From the IMG/VR virus record IMGVR_UViG_3300025513_000049, positions 1 through 26,433 of that record: a stretch of DNA of 26,433 bases. The stretch is one strand, 5' to 3'. Shown here one piece after another: positions 1,241 through 13,619 of this stretch. The position numbers were made by a program, and so were the translations under genes. The notes under the pieces are model-generated. The model was not told the origin of the DNA, did not search any database, and saw nothing but the letters and a program-made list of their open reading frames with translations. The DNA is from a virus (taxonomy: Duplodnaviria; Caudoviricetes). Position 1 is the stretch's first letter, and each line of letters begins with the position of its first letter.

Positions 1241-1737
1241 GAGTGGGGAGTTTGTTCACTGGTTACGGTGGCCTCGACATGGCTGTCGGTGGGAAACTCG
1301 CGTGGTACTCAGAGATTGAGCCAGCAGCCTGTCAAGTGCTGACAGCCCATTACCCAGATGTTCCCAACCTTGGAGACATCACAAAAATTGATTGGGCATC
1401 TGTTCCACCAGTTGACATTTTGACTGGCGGTTATCCATGCCAGCCATTTTCCCATGCAGGAAATAGGAAAGGTAAAGATGATGAACGACACCTCTGGCCT
1501 TACGTTCGAGACGCCATTGACGCGCTTCGACCAAGTTACGCAATCCTGGAGAACGTCGCAGGACACATCACTTTGGGATTTGCCGATGTCCTCGCCGACC
1601 TTGCCAGCATCGGGTTCGATGCGCAATGGGGAACTTTTCGAGCGTCCGATGTTGGAGCGCCCCACCAGCGCAACCGGCTCTTCATCGTTGCCTACCCTTG
1701 CAACTCCGGACACAATGGAATCATTACCAGTGCGTGA
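1237..1737 (+). CDS. C5 cytosine DNA methyltransferase, N-terminal part (motifs I-VIII)
   Basis: FTGYGG (I), GYPCQPFS (IV), ENV (VI), HQRNRLF (VIII); ATGA overlap with the helicase stop. Confidence 0.92.
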   Translation: MRVGSLFTGYGGLDMAVGGKLAWYSEIEPAACQVLTAHYPDVPNLGDITKIDWASVPPVDILTGGYPCQPFSHAGNRKGKDDERHLWPYVRDAIDALRPSYAILENVAGHITLGFADVLADLASIGFDAQWGTFRASDVGAPHQRNRLFIVAYPCNSGHNGIITSA

Positions 1738-2212
1738 AGGTGAAGCCTATGAGAAAGCCAAGCGACGTGGTAGTGGTCTGAGTGTGCGTGAGGACTCAGG
1801 CAACTTGCGGGAGCAAGTAGTTCATAACCTGCCTACCCCGACCGCTCGTGACTACAAAGACACGACGGTTCGCATGGAGCCGCACCGGCCTAACGACACA
1901 GACACAATTAACAGGGCGCTGGCAAGCATTACAACAACCGGAACCGCGTGGGGTAAGTACGAGCCTGCAATACGACGCTGGGAAAACCTCACACGCGAAG
2001 CACCTGAACCCACAGTCCCACACAAAGACAAACGCAGACTCAACCCCGTGTTTGTCGAATGGATGATGGGTTTACCGGAAGGGCACGTTACAGGGCGTGG
2101 GCTTACACCAGCGAAAGAGTTAAAAATGCTCGGTAACGGTGTCGTGCCGCAACAGGCGCGTGCCGCTGTCAATCAACTAATGGGGAGGATGGGTAATGTC
2201 GGCAGCCAATAA
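1478..2212 (+). CDS. C5 cytosine DNA methyltransferase, C-terminal part (TRD, motifs IX-X), in an overlapping +1 frame
   Basis: LPTPTARDYKD, RRLNPVFVEWMMGLP (IX), LKMLGNGVVP (X); SD AATAGGAAAGG (1462-1472) precedes ATG ATG at 1478/1481. Start position is uncertain. Confidence 0.85.
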   Translation: MMNDTSGLTFETPLTRFDQVTQSWRTSQDTSLWDLPMSSPTLPASGSMRNGELFERPMLERPTSATGSSSLPTLATPDTMESLPVREGEAYEKAKRRGSGLSVREDSGNLREQVVHNLPTPTARDYKDTTVRMEPHRPNDTDTINRALASITTTGTAWGKYEPAIRRWENLTREAPEPTVPHKDKRRLNPVFVEWMMGLPEGHVTGRGLTPAKELKMLGNGVVPQQARAAVNQLMGRMGNVGSQ

Positions 2213-2558: not shown

Positions 2559-2713
2559 CTGACGCTAGGCTCCCCATTGCAGAGGCATACTTCACAAAGT
2601 ATTATTCTTACCTTTCCAAATACTTCGAGATCGCAGTTGTTTTTGGTGGCGAAGAAGCCAAGAGACAATTCTATGCCGATCACAACATGAACCCTGACGG
2701 AAGCACGAAATGA
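2555..2713 (+). CDS. Hypothetical 52-aa protein (MTDARLPIAEAYFTKYY...)
   Basis: GTGA overlap with the upstream stop and ATGA overlap with the downstream start; fills the gap exactly. Confidence 0.7.
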   Translation: MTDARLPIAEAYFTKYYSYLSKYFEIAVVFGGEEAKRQFYADHNMNPDGSTK

Positions 2714-2732
2714 CTGACGCTAGGTTCCCCAT
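2556..2732 (+). repeat. 22-nt direct repeat (2556-2577 and 2711-2732) at two consecutive gene starts
   Basis: TGACTGACGCTAGGCTCCCCAT vs TGACTGACGCTAGGTTCCCCAT, one mismatch. Confidence 0.9.
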
Positions 2733-3108
2733 ATGGCCAGTGCTCGAACACTACGGGTGGACGTTACCATCACCGCGTGGAGTGTGGCAGACAGTGAAGT
2801 GTGGGGCACACGACGACAGTCACATGTCCTGCCGTGTCAGTGAAGATGCCGGTCAAGTAAAATGTTTAGCATGTGGATTTTCGGGCGACGCTATCGCGGT
2901 CGTTCAACACTACGAACAGTTAGGATTTAAGGATGCTCTCACTAGATGCGAAGAACTCACTGGAACAAGCGACAGCAGCGTACGAAACACAAGTGGATCA
3001 GGTCGCGGGTTATCTGGCAGCAAGGGGAATAAGTCAAGAGGCCGCGTTTACACACCGCCTCGGCTTCGTGGCCGATCCTCTGGTGGGACACGAACGGTAC
3101 GTGGGTAG
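2710..3108 (+). CDS. DNA primase zinc-binding (CHC2) subunit
   Basis: CGAHDD-x3-SC...CLACGFSGDAI; the low-complexity tail overlaps the next gene. Confidence 0.88.
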   Translation: MTDARFPIWPVLEHYGWTLPSPRGVWQTVKCGAHDDSHMSCRVSEDAGQVKCLACGFSGDAIAVVQHYEQLGFKDALTRCEELTGTSDSSVRNTSGSGRGLSGSKGNKSRGRVYTPPRLRGRSSGGTRTVRG

Positions 3109-3550
3109 ACTTGCTATCCCCTACGTCACGCCTACGTGTGTCACTGACGTTCGCTTCCGTGCTGTTAACGATGACGATTCTCCGAAGTATCTGTCGCGTG
3201 AGGGAGCCGAAACCCACCTATACAACGTGAAAGCGTTCGAGATGGACTCAGATTTTATTGCCATATGTGAAGGGGAAATGGACACGATCATCTCCCATAG
3301 CATGTGTGGTATTCCTACGATAGGATTAGCGGGTGCTAACGCATGGAAGCCTTGGTATGCTAGGGCTTTCGCTGATTACCATAAAGTGTTTGTGTTAACT
3401 GATGGTGACCAGCCGGGTAGGGATCTTGGCAAGAAGATCGCGCAGCAGATTGATGTGGCGGTAGTAGTGTCCATGCCTGACGGGATGGATGTGAACGAAG
3501 TGTTTATTCGTGACGGTGTTGAAGGTGTCAGAGGAAGGATCGGGTTGTGA
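2933..3550 (+). CDS. DNA primase catalytic TOPRIM subunit
   Basis: YLAARGI, RLAIPY, PKYL, ICEGEMD, DGDQPG, MDVNE motifs. Confidence 0.92.
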   Translation: MLSLDAKNSLEQATAAYETQVDQVAGYLAARGISQEAAFTHRLGFVADPLVGHERYVGRLAIPYVTPTCVTDVRFRAVNDDDSPKYLSREGAETHLYNVKAFEMDSDFIAICEGEMDTIISHSMCGIPTIGLAGANAWKPWYARAFADYHKVFVLTDGDQPGRDLGKKIAQQIDVAVVVSMPDGMDVNEVFIRDGVEGVRGRIGL

Positions 3551-5139: not shown

Positions 5140-5741
5140 AAGAGATGACTATTACCGATAGTGAAATTAAACTAGCAAAGCAGGGGGCACAAGGCGCGTA
5201 CCGTGCAGGGCGTGGACTGATAGACCTCGGGGATCTTATCGGTGAAGCGAACATGTGGATGGTGGAAAACTATCGTAAGGTAGTGACGTGGAGAGATGAA
5301 GGTCGCCACGGGCACAACAAACTCCGGCAAGCGTGTCGTCAGCGTTGCCTTACTGTGATCGCACGGGAACGTAAGAAGCGTTCCGGTCTTAAAGGTGGGG
5401 ATCTTTTCTTTTACAATCCTCAAATGGTTCGTGAACTTATCGCAGACATTTTCAGTGTAGATGATTGGACTACTAGCGGTGTTGATAATGGTGAGTTGCG
5501 GGGCAAATCAGTGCCCTCTGAGGGTGGAAACAAACTTGCTATGGTGGTTGATGTGCGTGGTGCTTTCTATTCTCTTACCGTGGACGACAGGGCTGTCATT
5601 GAATCGTTGTATCGTGACGGTGAGTCGTTTACACAGGTAGCAGTCACACTTGATGTTGCTGAGCGTACCGTTAGGCGCAAGGAAGAACGTATCCTTGAGA
5701 AGATTGTTGAACGGTTGGGTGGGGAGTCACCCTTCAGGTAA
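5130..5741 (+). CDS. Phage sigma-70-family-like RNA polymerase sigma factor
   Basis: Region-2-like DLGDLIGEANMW and region-4 HTH LTVDDRAVIESLYRDGESFTQVAVTLDVAERTVRRKEERILEKI. Confidence 0.8.
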   Translation: MEIKEMTITDSEIKLAKQGAQGAYRAGRGLIDLGDLIGEANMWMVENYRKVVTWRDEGRHGHNKLRQACRQRCLTVIARERKKRSGLKGGDLFFYNPQMVRELIADIFSVDDWTTSGVDNGELRGKSVPSEGGNKLAMVVDVRGAFYSLTVDDRAVIESLYRDGESFTQVAVTLDVAERTVRRKEERILEKIVERLGGESPFR

Positions 5742-5848
5742 GTGACCCCCCGTTAGTAAGCCACACTATGCCCGGTTGGGCATGTTCTGGCGTACTTTCT
5801 CCCTAACTAAAGCGTCAAAATACACCCGATATTAGGGGTGAATTGACG
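5721..5848. terminator. Hairpin cluster where the two transcription units converge (candidate U-less terminators)
   Basis: GGGGAGTCAC/GTGACCCCCC (5721-5751), ATGCCC-GGTT-GGGCAT (5768-5783), CGTCAA..CACCC/GGGTG..TTGACG (5813-5848); no U-tracts. Confidence 0.45.
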
Positions 5849-5868: not shown

Positions 5869-6564
5869 TCACTTCACCTCCGGCGCGTCGCAGCGTTCGA
5901 TTGATGTGATGGACGGGTTTGGAGGTGAATCGTTTGGAGCGAGAATGTTAAGGCCAACCATGATTGCCCCGTGAGCAAAAAAAACTGTCCCTTCAAAAGC
6001 CTTTTCGTTATATGTAGTAGTCACCCGCACCCACTCATGTTCTTTCAAAGTTGGTATCAGTTCGGCAGGTGTAGGCGGGACGTATAGGGTTAGGTTGCAT
6101 TCGTAGTTTTGTTGATAAGTATCGCCAGAACTACGGTAATTCCATTCACCCAACTTTTCATGCCAGTCAGTCAGTGCTACCGTCCACGGCTGAGTGGAAA
6201 GTTCCGACAACACCCGATCCCCAAACTTAAACTTTGGTTGCGGGTGAATAGTTACTCCACCTTCTGCGCCAAGATTCTCTACCGAAACTTCCGTGCCGTC
6301 CAGTAGATACCCTTTCGTGACATTGGCTTCAATAGTGCCAGATCCACCACTTATACCGGGGTTATAGCCTCCACCGCCGCCAGCGCCTGCCTGCCACCGT
6401 TTCCCCAAGTTAAAAGAAATAAATCTTGCTAGTTTAACGTCAGCGGTGTGCTCTTTTTCTAGTTCCGCAATCAACTTAGCGTGATCCTCGTACCGCACCC
6501 ACGCGCCTTCCCTGTTCGGACTCATGCACGAGTCGTACAACCTATGTCTATTTATTTCACTCAT
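5869..6564 (-). CDS. Mosaic hypothetical protein with Gly-rich linker and KOW/SH3-like segment
   Basis: 231-aa ORF from MSEINRH; contains GAGGGGGYNPGISGGSG and PKFKFGDRV; SD GAAGGAG. Confidence 0.8.
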   Translation of the reverse strand: MSEINRHRLYDSCMSPNREGAWVRYEDHAKLIAELEKEHTADVKLARFISFNLGKRWQAGAGGGGGYNPGISGGSGTIEANVTKGYLLDGTEVSVENLGAEGGVTIHPQPKFKFGDRVLSELSTQPWTVALTDWHEKLGEWNYRSSGDTYQQNYECNLTLYVPPTPAELIPTLKEHEWVRVTTTYNEKAFEGTVFFAHGAIMVGLNILAPNDSPPNPSITSIERCDAPEVK

Positions 6565-6841
6565 CACTTTCTCCTTCATCTTCTAGTACCACTAGGTCCT
6601 CGTACTGTTCAGCACCTAGACGTTCGCGTTCAGCACACGCATACCCTTCGCTATCAGCGATCACGTTGCTGAGGACGGTGACTGCCCGGGAGAGTTCTCC
6701 CGGGTGGTCAGGTGTCCACGGATCAAACAAGAACGTGGCTTGCATCTTCACCATGTGGTCCTTGTGCCTGACACCATCAATACTGAGCAGAGACAAACGC
6801 TCGGGGCTTAACGGTCGTGGCTCGCGATACGGGTCACTCAC
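6557..6841 (-). CDS. Hypothetical protein (MSDPYREPRP...)
   Basis: Overlaps its neighbours at both ends; GTG start chosen at the upstream stop. Confidence 0.7.
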   Translation of the reverse strand: MSDPYREPRPLSPERLSLLSIDGVRHKDHMVKMQATFLFDPWTPDHPGELSRAVTVLSNVIADSEGYACAERERLGAEQYEDLVVLEDEGESDE

Positions 6842-9131: not shown

Positions 9132-9243
9132 TACTGTCCTCATCTTTCCACGGGCATTCTGCCGCTAGTCGTGCCGCTAGACGCGGCTTGAACACCGCTT
9201 CGCGTCGGCATAATTCCTCAATCCAATCACATGTAGCACACAT
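9124..9243 (-). CDS. 39-aa CxxC microprotein
   Basis: MCATCDWIEELCRREAVFKPRLAARLAAECPWKDEDSNG*; SD AAGGAAGG; TGATG overlap. Confidence 0.6.
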   Translation of the reverse strand: MCATCDWIEELCRREAVFKPRLAARLAAECPWKDEDSNG

Positions 9244-9416
9244 CACATTCCTTCCTTTTCATAATCGTACACTTCACCATCAAGATAATCGTAATAGTGA
9301 TCTTCCGTAAACATGCAGTAGAACATGGATATTAGTACACCGATGCCGACTAACACAACGAGTACTAGGCCAGTACGCACACCAATGTCTAGTGTTGCCC
9401 AAAGAATATCAGACAT
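9243..9416 (-). CDS. 57-aa single-pass membrane protein
   Basis: MSDILWATLDIGVRTGLVLVVLVGIGVLISMFYCMF followed by an acidic tail; SD GAGGA. Confidence 0.7.
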   Translation of the reverse strand: MSDILWATLDIGVRTGLVLVVLVGIGVLISMFYCMFTEDHYYDYLDGEVYDYEKEGM

Positions 9417-9585
9417 GAAAATTCATCCTCACTTTCATAACCCTGAACTCTACCCATTCTTGTTCGGCACGGTAATACGCCAGCATTTTCTTAGACTCCG
9501 CTACCGTGTCGGTTACGGATACGGATTCCCAACCGTAACCGTCACCGTGCCAGCCTTGAATTTCGTAACCGTATAGTTCACTCAT
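9409..9585 (-). CDS. Hypothetical early protein (YEIQG-x2-G-x-GWE type)
   Basis: ORF with upstream AAGGATAGGTGAG; alternative GTG start at 9594. Confidence 0.8.
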   Translation of the reverse strand: MSELYGYEIQGWHGDGYGWESVSVTDTVAESKKMLAYYRAEQEWVEFRVMKVRMNFHV

Positions 9586-9623
9586 CTCACTCACCTATCC
9601 TTATCTGTTTAGTTAGCACACTA

Positions 9624-9689
9624 CTTTAGTGTCCTACCAAGAGCCACCATGCCGACAATAACATGGTGACCCAAGGTAATGCACTAAAG
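9624..9689 (-). other. Intergenic hairpin A (66 nt)
   Basis: Minus strand CTTTAGTG-CAT-TACC-TT-GGGTCACCATG-loop10-CATGGTGGCTC-TT-GGTA-GGA-CACTAAAG. Confidence 0.85.
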
Positions 9690-9690
9690 A

Positions 9691-10500
9691 CTAGCCTGTG
9701 ATTCGCACTGGCATCAGTAAGTAATCCCACTTGACGCCGTTATGTGCCTCCACATAGTCAAGCATGGCCGGTTTAAGGTTAGTGGTGAATCTAAATCTTA
9801 TGGGTGCATCCTTCCAATGAGGGATCTTCGCGACATCCGCAAGATATGTCGGATTGTAGGACGCGAACGTAACGCTACCCTGCGACAGCATCTCATCCGT
9901 TGGCACTAACGACCGCCATTTTGGGAATTCACCGTCGATAGTTCGCACCGGGCGCACAATACGCTCACTAGGGTCACCGTATTCAATGGTTACCGTGTCA
10001 CGACCGACGAGTGTGACCGTAATCATGTCATGCTCACTATTATTCCACGCTATTTTTTTAGGCAACACTTTGACTAGTTCGGCGGCCACCGTGCGAGGCA
10101 ACAAGAATCCGCCCTCACCTACCGTAACCGCGTACGATTCTTTCCGTGTCACACCTACCACCATACGGTAACGGTCGGTAGTAATCACAGTGATCTCGTT
10201 ATTGGACCATTCAAACTTTATCCCCGTGAGTACGGGTAGCGTGTCATCTTTGCCTACGGCCACTAGCGCGCCGATAAGCATGTCGCGAAACGAAACACCT
10301 AACATAGTAAATGTTGGCGCGGTAACGACATTTTCCGGGGTGAATCCCACACTATTATCGACCGCATGCATCTTAGTGCTACCGTCGCGTGAATATTCCG
10401 GCGACAAATCCCCGGAACCTAACGGTGCACCTACCGGGATAATCTCCACTTTAGACATGATCCCACTAGACACGATGTCATTCTTGAATCCTGTATACAT
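9691..10500 (-). CDS. Truncated DNA polymerase III beta-clamp (DnaN)-like protein
   Basis: DDTLPVLTGI, TTDRYRM, GEFPKWRSLVP, YNPTYLADV and C-terminal YLLMPVRI match DnaN domains II/III; domain I is absent. Confidence 0.85.
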   Translation of the reverse strand: MYTGFKNDIVSSGIMSKVEIIPVGAPLGSGDLSPEYSRDGSTKMHAVDNSVGFTPENVVTAPTFTMLGVSFRDMLIGALVAVGKDDTLPVLTGIKFEWSNNEITVITTDRYRMVVGVTRKESYAVTVGEGGFLLPRTVAAELVKVLPKKIAWNNSEHDMITVTLVGRDTVTIEYGDPSERIVRPVRTIDGEFPKWRSLVPTDEMLSQGSVTFASYNPTYLADVAKIPHWKDAPIRFRFTTNLKPAMLDYVEAHNGVKWDYLLMPVRITG

Positions 10501-10530
10501 AATCTAATCCTATCTATTCTGTTATGACGA

Positions 10531-10594
10531 TAATCTATCGCCATGAAACGACACTAGCATACCTTGCCTAGTGTCGCAACATGAAACTAGATTA
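10531..10594 (-). other. Intergenic hairpin B (64 nt)
   Basis: Minus strand TAATCTA-GTTT-CATG-TT-GCGACACTAG-loop10-CTAGTGTCGT-TT-CATG-GCGA-TAGATTA. Confidence 0.88.
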
Positions 10595-10600
10595 AATCAC

Positions 10601-10816
10601 CTACTTCCCGGAATAAAGGCAATCGTAATACGTTGGCGTCACAGTATCTAACCACGTCGTAAAATCTAATTGCCTATTGCCCCCCAACTTATACGTTGCC
10701 AGCATATCGAAGTCGGTATGTAACTCCACGGTGTCACTACCGATAATCCACGTCCACCATTGCCCGATACGGTTAGCGCGTTGCGCGGTCATGATACCGT
10801 CGCGTGAATAAATCAT
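10601..10816 (-). CDS. Hypothetical early protein
   Basis: 71-aa ORF preceded by AGAATAGGAAGG. Confidence 0.8.
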   Translation of the reverse strand: MIYSRDGIMTAQRANRIGQWWTWIIGSDTVELHTDFDMLATYKLGGNRQLDFTTWLDTVTPTYYDCLYSGK

Positions 10817-10929
10817 TTTGTTACCTTCCTATTCTTAATCCATACGATATGGCACTGGCAATAATCCCATACCATGTCGCATTGCTCACAAGTAATTCCA
10901 TTAGTCGAACGATACTCTGTGCGTTTCAT
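10813..10929 (-). CDS. 38-aa Cys microprotein
   Basis: MKRTEYRSTNGITCEQCDMVWDYCQCHIVWIKNRKVTK*; ATGA overlaps on both ends; SD AAGGTG. Confidence 0.7.
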   Translation of the reverse strand: MKRTEYRSTNGITCEQCDMVWDYCQCHIVWIKNRKVTK

Positions 10930-11159
10930 GTTGTCACCTTGCCCAATTCGGCACTGACCACCGGGTAAGTAGGACGACCGTAGTCATGCAAAGTCATTAC
11001 AGACTTGTCAGACTTACAACCGAAACAATACACTCCCGAAAGATAAGTGTTACAACTAGCGCACACTATAACCAACTTAGGATCAAACTTGTCTTTCGAA
11101 GTATTGTGCCAACATCCTGTGCTGTTGTACCCTGAAAACTCGCAATAAATACATTCCAT
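10926..11159 (-). CDS. Cys-rich zinc-finger-like early protein
   Basis: CIYC...CWH...CASC...CFGC; alternative GTG start at 11171. Confidence 0.75.
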   Translation of the reverse strand: MECIYCEFSGYNSTGCWHNTSKDKFDPKLVIVCASCNTYLSGVYCFGCKSDKSVMTLHDYGRPTYPVVSAELGKVTT

Positions 11160-11193
11160 GATCTTTCCCACTTTCCTATCCTCACCTAACCAA

Positions 11194-11249
11194 TTTGATT
11201 AAGTAGCAAGCCCTAGCGCCTAAGCACTAGAGCAAACTAACTATTCAAA
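11194..11249 (-). other. Intergenic hairpin C (~56 nt)
   Basis: Core 11204-11239, minus strand TAGT-TT-GCTCTAGTGC-TTAG-GCGCTAGGGC-TT-GCTA, with G-U pairs on the minus strand. Confidence 0.8.
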
Positions 11250-11511
11250 CTCTCACCTGATGAATAACGTCCACCGTGAAGCGATCACCGCCTAGGTGGG
11301 AATGGCAACCGTCGCACATTGACCAACTAAAGTTAGGCTCACCTTTGTCACTACTAATATCCGTGTAACTATCCACGCGCAAAAGATAGGACATGAATTG
11401 GTAACCCAACTCGTTAGTGTCTTCTTTACCTTCGAATACCCCGTGGCCTGTCATGTAGCAATCCACGCAAATATCTGCACTGTAAATAATTAGTTCTGGT
11501 GTCGCACTCAT
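11245..11511 (-). CDS. Early protein with two CxxC motifs
   Basis: ICVDC...FSWSMCDGCHSHLGGDRF; preceded by AGAATAGGAAGG. Confidence 0.85.
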   Translation of the reverse strand: MSATPELIIYSADICVDCYMTGHGVFEGKEDTNELGYQFMSYLLRVDSYTDISSDKGEPNFSWSMCDGCHSHLGGDRFTVDVIHQVRV

Positions 11512-11529
11512 GTCCTTGCCTTCCTATTC

Positions 11530-11598
11530 TTGTCCTATTGTTAGGACATAGCCGAACCTAGGTTCCCCTAGGTCAGACTATGAAACAACACTAGACAA
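11530..11598 (-). other. Intergenic hairpin D (69 nt, GNRA loop)
   Basis: Minus strand TTGTC..TGTT-GTTT-CATAGTC-T-GACCTAGG-GGAA-CCTAGGTT-C-GGCTATG-TCCT-AACA..GACAA. Confidence 0.85.
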
Positions 11599-11600
11599 CC

Positions 11601-11915
11601 TTACATGCACTCCCCAACAAACTCTAGTACCGACTCCACGGCGAACGGCGCATAAACATATACTTCAGCCTTATCTCCCCCCCAATTAACTTCCACACTC
11701 GCGCCACTATCCTGGAAAGTAACCCAACAATTAGGACCACCTAAAGTAACCGCTACTTCGACACTCACCAGAGTGTTGCCGTAGCCATAAGTGCAACGCG
11801 TATCTAAACAATCATCCAAATATGCCATAGCGTCGAATACCTTACCGTTGGCAACAATCTCACGCAAATCGTCCGCAATACTATCGGCGTATTCTTGACT
11901 CAAATTATCAGACAT
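11601..11915 (-). CDS. Acidic early protein (TLGGPN...NWG motif)
   Basis: 104-aa ORF preceded by AGAATAGGAAAGG. Confidence 0.85.
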   Translation of the reverse strand: MSDNLSQEYADSIADDLREIVANGKVFDAMAYLDDCLDTRCTYGYGNTLVSVEVAVTLGGPNCWVTFQDSGASVEVNWGGDKAEVYVYAPFAVESVLEFVGECM

Positions 11916-11946
11916 GACTAACCTTTCCTATTCTGTCGTAACGTAT

Positions 11947-12011
11947 CCGCTTTGGATACTACACAATACACTGACTCACTCGCCTAGTGTACCGTGTGCT
12001 ATTGAAAGCGG
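11947..12011 (-). other. Intergenic hairpin E (65 nt)
   Basis: Minus strand CCGCTTT-CAATAGC-ACACGGTACACT-loop-AGTGTATTGTGT-AGTATCC-AAAGCGG. Confidence 0.8.
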
Positions 12012-12047
12012 GCCAAGATGTCGTGCCTCACTCATGCGTTCATTGTT

Positions 12048-12197
12048 TCACTCTTCCACTAATAGTTGTCGGAATAAAGCCTTAGCCTCTTCTAAAGTGT
12101 AGTCAATGTATCGCTGTCGCACCAGATAACCTAAGTCATCCAAGGCTGATAGTGTGAATCCGTCCACGCCATATTGCTCTACGGTAATGTTATTCAT
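12048..12197 (-). CDS. 49-aa early protein
   Basis: MNNITVEQYGVDGFTLSALDDLGYLVRQRYIDYTLEEAKALFRQLLVEE*; SD AAGGA. Confidence 0.8.
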   Translation of the reverse strand: MNNITVEQYGVDGFTLSALDDLGYLVRQRYIDYTLEEAKALFRQLLVEE

Positions 12198-12206
12198 GTC
12201 TAATCC

Positions 12207-12497
12207 TTAATTGTAGGCAGGCCGGTTAGCCTGATCAAAAGTAGAATATGTCACCTTGACATACGGCCTAGGCACATAGTCGTCGTCGTTCACAATAGGT
12301 TCGACTAGGTTCGTCGAAACATTAACCCGTTCGCGTGTTGTCCTACGTCGTGGCTTTTTGCCATAGGCAGGATAGTAACCCGTTGGTGACGAACTACTAC
12401 GCAAGCCATACACACTAGGGTTAGGTCTTGCACTCACCCTAGCCAGATTTAATGGCGTACCACTTCCGAACAACGACGCGCTATTGGCGCGTGACAT
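12207..12497 (-). CDS. First early gene, basic and probably disordered protein (MSRANSASLFGSG...)
   Basis: ATG at 12497 behind AGACTAGGAAAGG...GGTGG; contains KKPRRR. Confidence 0.7.
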   Translation of the reverse strand: MSRANSASLFGSGTPLNLARVSARPNPSVYGLRSSSSPTGYYPAYGKKPRRRTTRERVNVSTNLVEPIVNDDDYVPRPYVKVTYSTFDQANRPAYN

Positions 12498-12552
12498 GAA
12501 TACCACCAAGCCTTTCCTAGTCTGAGATACTTGCGTATCTTCCAATAAATCA

Positions 12553-12581
12553 ACCTTACTACTTTTGGTTCATGTAGTCAA
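12553..12581 (-). promoter_or_regulatory. SigA-type early promoter P1
   Basis: TTGACT (12581-12576), 17 nt spacer, TAAGGT (12558-12553), pointing into the leftward operon. Confidence 0.75.
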
Positions 12582-12678
12582 GTACCTAGCGGAAAGAATT
12601 TTGGGAGAGGATCACCGGCGACCGGCTTCTTGATCCACGCTCCCCGAACTTTCCGGTTGCTACTTGCTTACAGGGATT

Positions 12679-13047: not shown

Positions 13048-13056
13048 GTACCGTGG

Positions 13057-13116
13057 TTACCCACCAGTAACTTACGGTAGCGTAGGTTACGGTAGCGTAG
13101 GTTACCCATCAGTAAC
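13057..13116. repeat. Four tandem 15-bp units, TTAC-N6-GTA(A/G)-(C/G)
   Basis: TTACCCACCAGTAAC / TTACGGTAGCGTAGG / TTACGGTAGCGTAGG / TTACCCATCAGTAAC. Confidence 0.9.
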
Positions 13117-13619
13117 TTGACCCCATGGATGCTTAGGTGGCCGCGGAGGGTAGTATATATATAGGGGTACCTTTCTTGCGGGTTATATTGTTTGGGGGCT
13201 ACCGTATTGTCCGGTTTGTACACATAGTTTACAACAATGTTGTAACAATTTACTGTTTTCTTGTTTTTTGTGTCCAAAAGGGTGTCCGAAACGAGGATAT
13301 ATATATAGAAAGTAAAACCGTACGGTACTGTAAGCGAGTGCTTCTTGCACGAGCGCACATCGCTTCGGTTTACGTTGAAGGCACTACGAAGTAGGTGCCG
13401 GTAACTCACCCTTCGTTGCTTCGCCTCAGGGTTCGTTTAACGGTTACTGTTTCTTGGGGCACTTCGCTCAGTCGTCGCTTCGCTCCTCCTTCGCTCAGTA
13501 GTTTCAACGCCGATGCTAATAATTGTACGCCAATGGGGGTACCCTCTCCTACACCCCTGTTAACACCCTAGTCAACATTGCTGTGTACACAATTTTTTTT
13601 TAACGGAAAGGTTGTCTCC

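What the first reader, a model, noticed from the sequence alone, without database searches (positions are those of the whole stretch)
9624..12011. Array of five sequence-unrelated but architecturally similar 56-69 nt hairpins punctuating the early genes
Seen: every intergenic gap long enough between 9.6 and 12.05 kb is occupied by a long interrupted hairpin (9624-9689, 10531-10594, 11194-11249, 11530-11598, 11947-12011). Four begin at or within a few nt of the stop codon, and each ends shortly before the next gene's SD. A, B and C share a 10-11 bp apical stem, a tandem U-U/U-U mismatch and a 4-bp stem; D has a GNRA loop; B-E contain CTAG in or next to the apical stem. Plus-strand A-C mismatches become G-U pairs on the coding strand and there are no U-tracts, so these look like mRNA structures rather than classical terminators. 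Knowledge: T7 early mRNA is cut into cistrons by host RNase III at such intergenic stems, and integron attC sites are also structure-defined gene spacers. Inference: a gene + hairpin + SD cassette system, most simply RNase III processing/stabilisation of the early transcript; alternatively binding sites for a phage protein or structure-specific recombination sites for shuffling early genes.
Basis: partly seen in the sequence, partly recalled or inferred. Interest (0 to 1): 0.85.

Follow-up and report, generated by a model that had tools for sequence, protein, structure and literature searches.

The report
Swappable mRNA hairpins between actinophage genes
Five long RNA hairpins sit between the small early genes of a salt-lake virus of actinobacteria, are kept by matched base changes in related viruses and mark places where genes are gained or lost; they likely tell the host enzyme RNase III where to cut and protect the long early message, as in phage T7, but no cut has been shown.

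Summary
The five hairpins are real: z -5.6 to -9.1 on the coding strand, 0 of 200 shuffles. The phage is a distant relative of Streptomyces cluster BF (Beephvirinae) podoviruses, and the hairpins punctuate its leftward early arm.

They are not one-offs. Each type has relatives with compensatory changes, and stop-hairpin-SD units occur across the family (89 distinct elements, including cultured BF phages). None has a U-tract. Size, position and U.U-containing internal loops match T7 early RNase III sites folded the same way.

The same hairpin type follows different genes in different relatives and is often duplicated around optional genes. Natural deletions run SD-to-SD or start at the hairpin foot, so the linkers act as gene-swap joints, like T4 PeSLs but without a promoter.

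Best reading: RNA processing/stabilisation sites for host RNase III (0.55), reused passively for recombination. Rival: uncut stabilisers or U-less attenuators (0.25). Integron-like attC sites are not supported. No RNA data exist, the strict E. coli RNase III box is not enriched, and some close relatives keep only one hairpin. This scan noted similar arrays in other actinophages before (unchecked).

The parts
12590..12655 (-). Candidate leader hairpin upstream of the first early gene (weaker, not strand-biased)
   Evidence: z -3.5 minus and -3.9 plus; one compensatory change in L005 read from the alignment
12207..12545 (-). First early ORF (up to 112 aa), unknown function
   Evidence: conserved in L003 and L005; no PHROG, Pfam or NCBIfam hit
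12048..12197 (-). 49-aa early ORF upstream of hairpin E
   Evidence: 55-aa homologues in L003 and L005
11947..12011 (-). Hairpin E (25 bp, two 2x2 loops)
   Evidence: 100% paired in 3 homologues, 2 double changes, not significant with n=3 (57/500)
11922..11932 (-). SD-like AATAGGAAAGG; swap breakpoint region (11922, 11934, 11942)
11601..11915 (-). 104-aa early ORF
   Evidence: homologue in L095 behind a different hairpin
11530..11598 (-). Hairpin D (25 bp, GGAA loop, 3x3 pyrimidine loop 15 bp below the apex)
   Evidence: 7 homologues 99.3% paired, 9 pairs double-changed, 0/500 shuffles
11519..11528 (-). SD-like AATAGGAAGG; one end of the natural deletion 11180-11529
11245..11511 (-). 88-aa optional ORF (phrog_3034 partial); lost together with hairpin C in a population variant
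11194..11249 (-). Hairpin C (21 bp, UU/UU loop 10 bp below the apex, U.C 14 bp below)
   Evidence: lower 11 pairs 98.5% kept in 6 homologues but little covariation (64/500); 86% identical over 79 nt in L025
11174..11180 (-). SD-like GATAGGA; other end of the 11180-11529 deletion
10926..11171 (-). 81-aa ORF (ATG start at 11159 also possible), Cys-rich
   Evidence: weak DZR hit, E 0.097
10813..10929 (-). 38-aa ORF filling the apparent gap; overlaps both neighbours by ATGA
   Evidence: sequence; homologues in 8 loci
10601..10816 (-). 71-aa ORF (60 aa in relatives)
10531..10594 (-). Hairpin B (24 bp, UU/UU loop and 3x3 lower loop)
   Evidence: 11 distinct homologues 94.2% paired, 4 pairs double-changed, 0/500 shuffles
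10508..10514 (-). SD-like GATAGGA
9691..10500 (-). DNA polymerase III beta-clamp-like gene (269 aa)
   Evidence: PF02767 E 1e-11; TIGR00663 below cut-off
9624..9689 (-). Hairpin A (26 bp, UU/UU loop 13 bp below the apex, 2x2 loop 18 bp below)
   Evidence: 5 distinct homologues 96.7% paired, 5 pairs double-changed, 0/500 shuffles on cells
9594..9605 (-). SD-like GATAAGGATAGG; swap breakpoint at 9612 just upstream
9409..9594 (-). 58-61-aa ORF downstream of hairpin A; skipped in one population variant (9410-9582)

Best explanation
The five elements are conserved RNA hairpins between genes of the phage's early arm that are likely cut by host RNase III to split and protect the long early mRNA, and their linkers mark sites where optional genes are gained and lost, likely by ordinary recombination between similar copies. 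SHOWN: fold, coding-strand bias, covariation, family-wide spread, absence of U-tracts, and gene exchange at the linkers. INFERRED: one polycistronic transcript runs leftward from about 12.6-12.9 kb; RNase III binds the 21-26 bp stem and nicks the 3' side of an internal loop; the upstream message keeps a protective 3' hairpin and the downstream message starts 20-50 nt before its SD. Two cut registers remain open. One is the UU/UU loop 10-13 bp below the apex, by T7 analogy (3' side near 9640, 10546, 11208). The other is the lower loop 14-18 bp below the apex (near 9633, 10539, 11202, 11545), which is the better conserved. Because the hairpin foot and the SD-like (A/G)ATAGGA motif repeat, crossing-over there would add or drop a whole SD-gene-hairpin unit with its expression signals intact.
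For: Fold and z-scores. Early gaps of 45-150 nt fold at z<=-3 in 46 of 91 cases versus 2 of 19 other gaps; coding strand more stable in 80 of 91 (automated gene calls, 30 shuffles, so noisy). Covariation of types A, B, D. 89 distinct elements from 32 stretches: median 33 rungs (includes chance flanking pairs), median 23 nt before the next start, 0 of 89 with 5 or more T in 8 nt downstream, U.U the commonest mismatch. 210 G.U versus 49 A.C rungs in 54 cluster representatives. A shared rung motif around the pyrimidine loop scores 302 versus 192-225 in 16 shuffled controls. T7 early gaps folded the same way give 24-33 rungs ending 9-16 nt before the next start. The T7 R1.1 cut (position 5887, PMC8708148 passages) lies on the 3' side of a U.U-containing loop under a 10-bp stem. 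Six related SPO1 hairpins of 24-29 rungs show the same layout (6 of 16 gaps). RNase III wants about two helical turns, and internal loops limit it to one cut that leaves a protective 3' hairpin (PMC1540722). S. coelicolor RNase III cuts at an internal loop of an intergenic hairpin (PMC10126417). No phage RNase III in 0 of 5 records. Relatives end units with short U-tract terminators (L036 and L068; L100; Manuel and FlowerPower). Gene exchange.
Against: No cleavage or RNA-end data. The strict E. coli proximal-box triple is not enriched (10 of 54 versus 10.6 expected); only a relaxed WWG version is (27 of 54 versus 18.4 +/- 3.1, 2 of 1000, a variant chosen after looking). In the T7 register the pb2 position is mostly C-G or G-C, an E. 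coli antideterminant. The first pyrimidine mismatch sits at no single distance from the apex (peaks at 8-11 and 17 rungs). A and E lack an upper WWG box. L003 and L005 keep only E ahead of a long hairpin-free gene run, and L038, L068 and L081 have few or none, so the elements are dispensable. The window's own convergent-end hairpin (5751-5721) also lacks a U-tract. The host is inferred, not shown.
Confidence: 0.55

Rival explanations
1. Uncut RNA barriers. The hairpins act as U-less terminators or attenuators, or as 3'-exonuclease blocks that stabilise the upstream cistron after other nucleases cut, and so set a gradient of early gene expression.
For: They start at the stop codon, where terminators sit. 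U-less terminators were reported for the early region of actinophage phiC31 (Ingham 1995, title seen only in a reference list). phiC31 gaps hold stop-proximal U-less hairpins. The window's convergent-end hairpin has no U-tract.
Against: Mycobacterial RNA polymerase does not terminate at U-less structures (PMC3993855 abstract). Relatives use short U-tract terminators at unit ends. A plain barrier does not explain unpaired loops kept at fixed places while the paired sequence changes, nor a 21-26 bp interrupted stem. The promoter scan found no re-initiation signal in the linkers.
Confidence: 0.25
2. Binding sites for a phage or host RNA-binding protein (or RNase III binding without cutting) that controls translation or antitermination of the next gene through the tandem U.U / G.U motif and the conserved (A/G)ATAGGA.
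For: Shared G-C, U.U, G.U, C-G rung motif. Predicted alternative folds pair the SD in B, C and D (mean unpaired probability 0.24-0.40). (A/G)ATAGGA occurs 6 times in 3.4 kb of early arm versus 2 in 22 kb elsewhere and resembles the cluster K SAS core. Binding without cleavage is known for RNase III.
Against: No candidate protein identified; the small early ORFs are freely exchanged. The motif is degenerate and absent in E. The SD-pairing folds were not tested for conservation.
Confidence: 0.12
3. Structure-specific DNA recombination sites (attC-like or REP-like) used by a recombinase to shuffle early genes.
For: Gene content changes at the linkers (22 of 36 alignment-end clusters in 23% of the span). 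One clean SD-gene-hairpin deletion and one insertion (L025 versus L026). 3 of 4 complete metagenomic relatives encode a tyrosine recombinase.
Against: 0 of 89 elements carry attC R-box pairs. Loops are symmetric mismatches, not extrahelical bases. Crossovers fall at two or more places (5' foot, inside the stem, SD), not one fixed base. No PF00589 match in hairpin-rich G008, Manuel or FlowerPower, while G002 and G005 have one and few hairpins. The recombinases score far below the integron-integrase cut-off (best 56 versus 265 bits). G000 itself is only 65% complete.
Confidence: 0.05
4. Chance folds or palindromic DNA operators/promoters (ESAS-like or phiC31 early-promoter-like).
For: Actinophages have conserved intergenic inverted repeats before SAS motifs.
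Against: Pairing is conserved while sequence is not; G.U exceeds A.C about fourfold; promoter-like hits 9 versus 12 by chance and none in the linkers on the coding strand.
Confidence: 0.03

Closest known systems
RNase III processing sites of the phage T7 early mRNA (R1.1 from PMC8708148; the names R0.3, R0.5, R1, R1.3 are recalled)
   Same: Intercistronic, in a terminal early operon; 24-33 rungs; 9-12 bp apical stem over a U.U-containing internal loop; end shortly before the next start; no U-tract.
   Different: T7 sites share an AAGG/CCUU box; the window's five fall into sequence-distinct types. Here the loops are symmetric and usually two per stem, the stem begins at the stop codon, and the host is actinobacterial. 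Cleavage not shown.
Bacillus phage SP82/SPO1 early-mRNA RNase III sites (SP82: Panganiban and Whiteley 1983, title and citing passage seen in PMC4838370; the SPO1 assignment is recalled)
   Same: Six related SPO1 hairpins of 24-29 rungs, three starting at the stop codon, with a 10-bp apical stem, a U.U mismatch below it and CUAG in the 5' arm, between small early genes.
   Different: One sequence family with an asymmetric loop in SPO1; several families with symmetric loops here; different host phylum.
PeSL elements of T4-type phages (PMC2839356, PMC4122927)
   Same: Stop codon, stem-loop, SD and start in one intergenic unit; flank optional ORFans; recombination between copies adds or removes genes.
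   Different: PeSLs contain a sigma-70 promoter and a terminator-type stem; no promoter found here; stems here are long and interrupted; mini-circles not tested.
SAS/ESAS of cluster K mycobacteriophages and cluster EF Microbacterium phages (PMC3203893, PMC7302621)
   Same: Conserved SD-overlapping motif with a GATAGGA core before small non-structural genes, preceded by an inverted repeat.
   Different: ESAS is a sequence-conserved 17-bp inverted repeat whose authors saw little support for mRNA hairpins; here pairing is conserved by compensatory change, and the 13-bp SAS consensus is not matched beyond the core.
Integron attC cassettes
   Same: Gene followed by a variable-sequence hairpin; cassettes are gained and lost.
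   Different: No R boxes (motif recalled), no extrahelical-base pattern, no integron integrase, no fixed crossover.

Membership tests
Phage intercistronic RNase III sites (T7/SP82 type) | Located between cistrons of an early polycistronic unit, on the coding strand | tested here: met
   (the transcript itself is inferred)
Phage intercistronic RNase III sites (T7/SP82 type) | About two helical turns with internal loop(s) and 9-12 bp or more on one side | tested here: met
   21-26 bp; T7 comparison; requirement from PMC1540722
Phage intercistronic RNase III sites (T7/SP82 type) | Structure conserved by compensatory change | tested here: met
   A, B, D 0/500 shuffles on cells paired; C and E not significant
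Phage intercistronic RNase III sites (T7/SP82 type) | Proximal/distal box sequence as defined for E. coli RNase III | tested here: inconclusive
   strict 10 of 54 versus 10.6; relaxed 27 of 54 versus 18.4; distal box not tested; actinobacterial specificity unknown
Phage intercistronic RNase III sites (T7/SP82 type) | rnc-dependent cleavage in vivo or in vitro | not testable with these tools
   needs RNA data or an enzyme assay
Intrinsic terminators | U-tract directly after the stem | tested here: not met
   0 of 89 with 5 or more T in 8 nt; window tails; none of A-E in the terminator scan
PeSL | sigma-70-like promoter within the element | tested here: not met
   (consensus scan only; other promoter types not covered)
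PeSL | Flank optional ORFs and coincide with indel boundaries | tested here: met
PeSL | Mini-circle formation | not testable with these tools
   needs inverse PCR or long reads of infected cells
Integron attC | R''/R' boxes (RYYYAAC ... GTTRRRY, recalled) | tested here: not met
   0 of 89
Integron attC | Integron integrase | tested here: not met
   G000 is 65% complete, so its own missing part was not seen
SAS/ESAS | 13-bp SAS consensus and sequence-conserved 17-bp inverted repeats | tested here: not met
   only the GATAGGA core is shared; arms differ in sequence among A-E
Rfam families | Match to a curated RNA family | tested here: not met
   no match in the region at E<=5

The most novel reading that the evidence does not exclude
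Beephvirinae-like phages run an integrase-free gene-cassette array. Interchangeable SD-gene-hairpin units are shared across distant phages (terminases only 66% identical), and each hairpin is at once an actinobacterial processing signal with its own code (a tandem U.U / G.U motif unlike the E. coli boxes) and the joint for cassette exchange. New early genes would therefore arrive pre-packaged as self-stabilising mRNAs.
Probability: 0.25. Interest if true: 0.8.

Novelty: new variant of a known kind. Interest (0 to 1): 0.55.

Why it matters
Processing of phage early mRNA is established for T7 and SP82. I found no paper describing such elements in cluster BF phages (open-licence library only).

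The same units exist in cultured Streptomyces phages (Manuel, WRightOn, Immanuel3), and an rnc null mutant exists for S. coelicolor, so the idea is directly testable. The 54 sequence-distinct natural stems are a ready substrate panel for defining actinobacterial RNase III specificity.

The linkers also give a concrete route by which small unknown early genes, often host-takeover or anti-defence genes (an ArdA-like gene lies in the BF array), move between phages.

Tried and rejected
Searches that found nothing useful:
- Megablast and blastn against cultured phages: no match.
- Rfam: nothing relevant.
- No RNA holder listed among public runs; this says nothing about expression.
- Prophage/host search in bacterial genomes: one weak, uninformative hit.
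- Earlier scan notes by place: none.

Dropped or limited results:
- A second laying of DNA contigs gave no data, so population breakpoints rest on 4 runs.
- L088 matched the C pattern by chance. It was wrongly included, which I do not use; omits it.
- One search used a structure shifted by one column and is replaced.
- A covariance model of type B finds B copies, D copies in L026 and L098 (E 9e-5), one L016 element (E 0.0015) and a weak L083 hit, but not A, C, E, the window's D, BF, T7 or SPO1 hairpins. There is no single sequence family.
- Stretches L055, L062, L082, L083, L085 and L086 showed few or no elements but may not be early arms; they were left out.
- The picker found only C and D in the window; A, B and E were added by hand.

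Ideas rejected:
- A leaderless promoter at TAGGAT before the clamp gene: it reads TAGGAC in L093-L095.
- CTAG as a special signal: enriched in the arm (7.7 per kb versus 2.6-4.5) and in 30 of 54 clusters, but at no fixed position and partly due to TAG stops. Left unexplained.
- DNA versus RNA folding energies: they do not discriminate.
Full report
CONTEXT. The window is a 26.4-kb virus record, 65% complete. It carries helicase, primase, phosphoesterase, sigma-like, WhiB-like, terminase and portal genes. Its terminase is 45.7-47.5% identical to those of Streptomyces cluster BF phages (Beephvirinae), which are podoviruses with short direct terminal repeats (PMC9753666, part 1 of 2 read). Gene order matches Manuel and FlowerPower, with a leftward arm of small genes at the genome end. 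The host is therefore inferred to be actinobacterial. Six runs holding 90% or more of the stretch's sampled words are labelled salt lake metagenome. 'Early' is inferred from position and gene content.

OBSERVATION. A-E fold on the coding strand at -25.0 to -36.4 kcal/mol, z -5.6 to -9.1, with 0 of 200 shuffles as good. A, C, D and E are four of only five minus-strand hairpins passing a strict whole-window filter; B fell under the cut-off. The apparent gap at 10817-10925 is a conserved 38-aa ORF. 'Sequence-unrelated' holds for 8 of 10 pairs only; B/D and B/E share 12-15 nt.

SELECTION ON PAIRING. Homologues came from metagenomic relatives. Type A: 5 sequences, 96.7% of cells paired, 5 pairs changed on both sides. 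Type B: 11 sequences, 94.2%, 4 pairs. Type D: 7 sequences, 99.3%, 9 pairs. All three beat 500 of 500 shuffles on cells paired, and slid registers fall to 26-52%. The tool warns that relatedness inflates the shuffle control and that a structure taken from one member favours itself. C (lower stem only) and E are fully compatible but not significant. In type B the apical sequence is replaced almost wholesale while the lower 3x3 loop stays largely unpaired. The UU/UU loop closes in one B variant.

FAMILY-WIDE. Cultured BF phages have hairpins from the stop codon to a conserved ACAAGGGAGAGA-type SD, several with a U.U or UU/UU mismatch 8-10 bp below the apex. L016, L017, L029, L030, L036, L043, L058 and L084 show the same layout. 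Early gaps fold at z<=-3 in 46 of 91 cases versus 2 of 19 other gaps. From 32 stretches I collected 89 distinct elements, none followed by a U-tract, in 54 sequence clusters after adding A, B and E by hand. A shared motif around the pyrimidine loop scores 302 versus 192-225 in shuffled controls (clusters are not phylogenetically independent). The trait is not universal: L003 and L005 keep only E, and L038, L068 and L081 have few or none.

GENE EXCHANGE. L003 and L005 are 87-94% identical to the window on both sides but replace the segment between 9612 and 11922/11942, that is, just downstream of E and of A. L025 and L026 differ by a 325-nt SD-gene-hairpin C unit bounded by ATAGGAA and ACAGGAA. 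C and D are 86% and 80% identical to the window there, although the terminases are 66% identical. In 4 DNA runs, contigs join 11180 to 11529 (loss of the 88-aa gene with C, SD to SD) and 10600 to 10926, and diverge at 9612, 10595, 11595 and 11934. C types follow three different genes, D types three and B types three or more. L093, L097, L102 and L104 carry two B copies around an optional 78-80-aa gene. Alignment ends fall in the linkers in 22 of 36 clusters against 23% of the span. That figure is inflated by ends caused by apical-stem divergence and by the general selection for breaks at gene borders; hairpin-free junctions (10944-10949) also break. The direct evidence is the duplicated hairpins and the SD-bounded indels.

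MECHANISM. Folded with the same script, four T7 early gaps give 24-33-rung hairpins ending 9-16 nt before the next start; one gap has none. The R1.1 cut at 5887 (PMC8708148 passages) lies on the 3' side of the loop under a 10-bp stem. Six of 16 SPO1 gaps hold related hairpins of like geometry. SP82 early-mRNA RNase III sites are cited in PMC4838370 (passages); their identity with the SPO1 hairpins is recalled. PMC1540722 (part 1 of 7 and passages) gives the helix-length rule, single cuts at internal loops and the E. coli boxes. S. coelicolor RNase III cuts beside a [4/4] loop in the rpsO-pnp hairpin (PMC10126417 passages; PMC4681348 passages). No phage RNase III was found (0 of 5 records).

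Against this: strict boxes are not enriched, and the relaxed version was chosen after inspection. New E. coli sites also fit the consensus poorly (PMC5371410 passages), so this test is weak in both directions. I commit to RNase III processing at 0.55.

RIVALS. Terminators: no U-tracts; mycobacterial RNA polymerase needs one (PMC3993855 abstract); relatives use canonical terminators at unit ends. However, U-less terminators are reported for phiC31 (title only), and the window's convergent-end hairpin has no U-tract. Protein-binding sites cannot be excluded. attC: no R boxes. Tyrosine recombinases occur in 3 of 4 complete relatives and in G021 but not in G008, Manuel or FlowerPower, and they are not integron integrases.

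KNOWN SYSTEMS. It works like the T7/SP82 sites; membership awaits cleavage data. It shares the shuffling role of PeSLs (PMC2839356 parts 2-3 of 6; PMC4122927 part 1 of 3) but lacks their promoter. It shares only the GATAGGA core with SAS/ESAS (PMC3203893 and PMC7302621 passages). I read no supplements. Nine literature searches showed no description of these elements in BF phages; PMC13097060 was seen only as a listing, and subscription papers are not covered.

VERDICT. Real, selected RNA structures that double as gene-swap joints: a new variant of a known kind. Earlier notes of this scan describe similar arrays in other actinophages (unchecked, not counted as evidence), so the pattern is probably common. 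Its value is that cultured BF phages make it testable now. Interest 0.55.

Noticed in passing
window 13055-13118: Stretch with a short tandem repeat, 77-97% conserved in otherwise unalignable relatives L021, L025, L026, L045 and L058; probable genome-end or packaging signal.
   Followed up: partly
window 12590-12655 (-): Interrupted hairpin in the early leader with a compensatory change in L005; possible sixth site, analogous to the one before T7 gene 0.3.
   Followed up: partly
window 6673-6717: Strong hairpin on both strands inside the 108-aa ORF; the best 70-nt fold of the window (-43.7).
   Followed up: no
window 5721-5751 (-): 12-bp hairpin where the leftward arm meets the sigma-like gene; no U-tract on either strand.
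   Followed up: partly
window 10601-10640: An extra stretch of about 40 nt extends the 60-aa ORF of relatives to 71 aa just before hairpin B.
   Followed up: partly
window 9691-10500: Beta-clamp-like gene in the early arm, flanked by hairpins here and in L016; relatives differ at 10328-10432.
   Followed up: partly
L003:5967-8007 and L005 equivalent: The replacing cassette encodes an amidoligase-like (PF12224) and a class II glutamine amidotransferase-like protein; similar starts are seen in L068.
   Followed up: partly
L036 early arm; L097, L098, L104 C-type loops: Five L036 hairpins share a GTTTAAAC loop region; C-type loops occur as GTAA and as its reverse complement TTAC, suggesting loop inversion.
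   Followed up: no
L105, L106, L107 (G002, G003, G005) and G021: Divergent tyrosine recombinases in some relatives but not in the two BF phages tested; these members may be temperate.
   Followed up: partly
window 9200-12600 (-): (A/G)ATAGGA occurs 6 times here versus 2 in the other 22 kb scanned, and resembles the cluster K SAS core.
   Followed up: partly
window 1454-2212 and 2710-3550: DNA methyltransferase gene; primase split into two overlapping ORFs as in Manuel.
   Followed up: no
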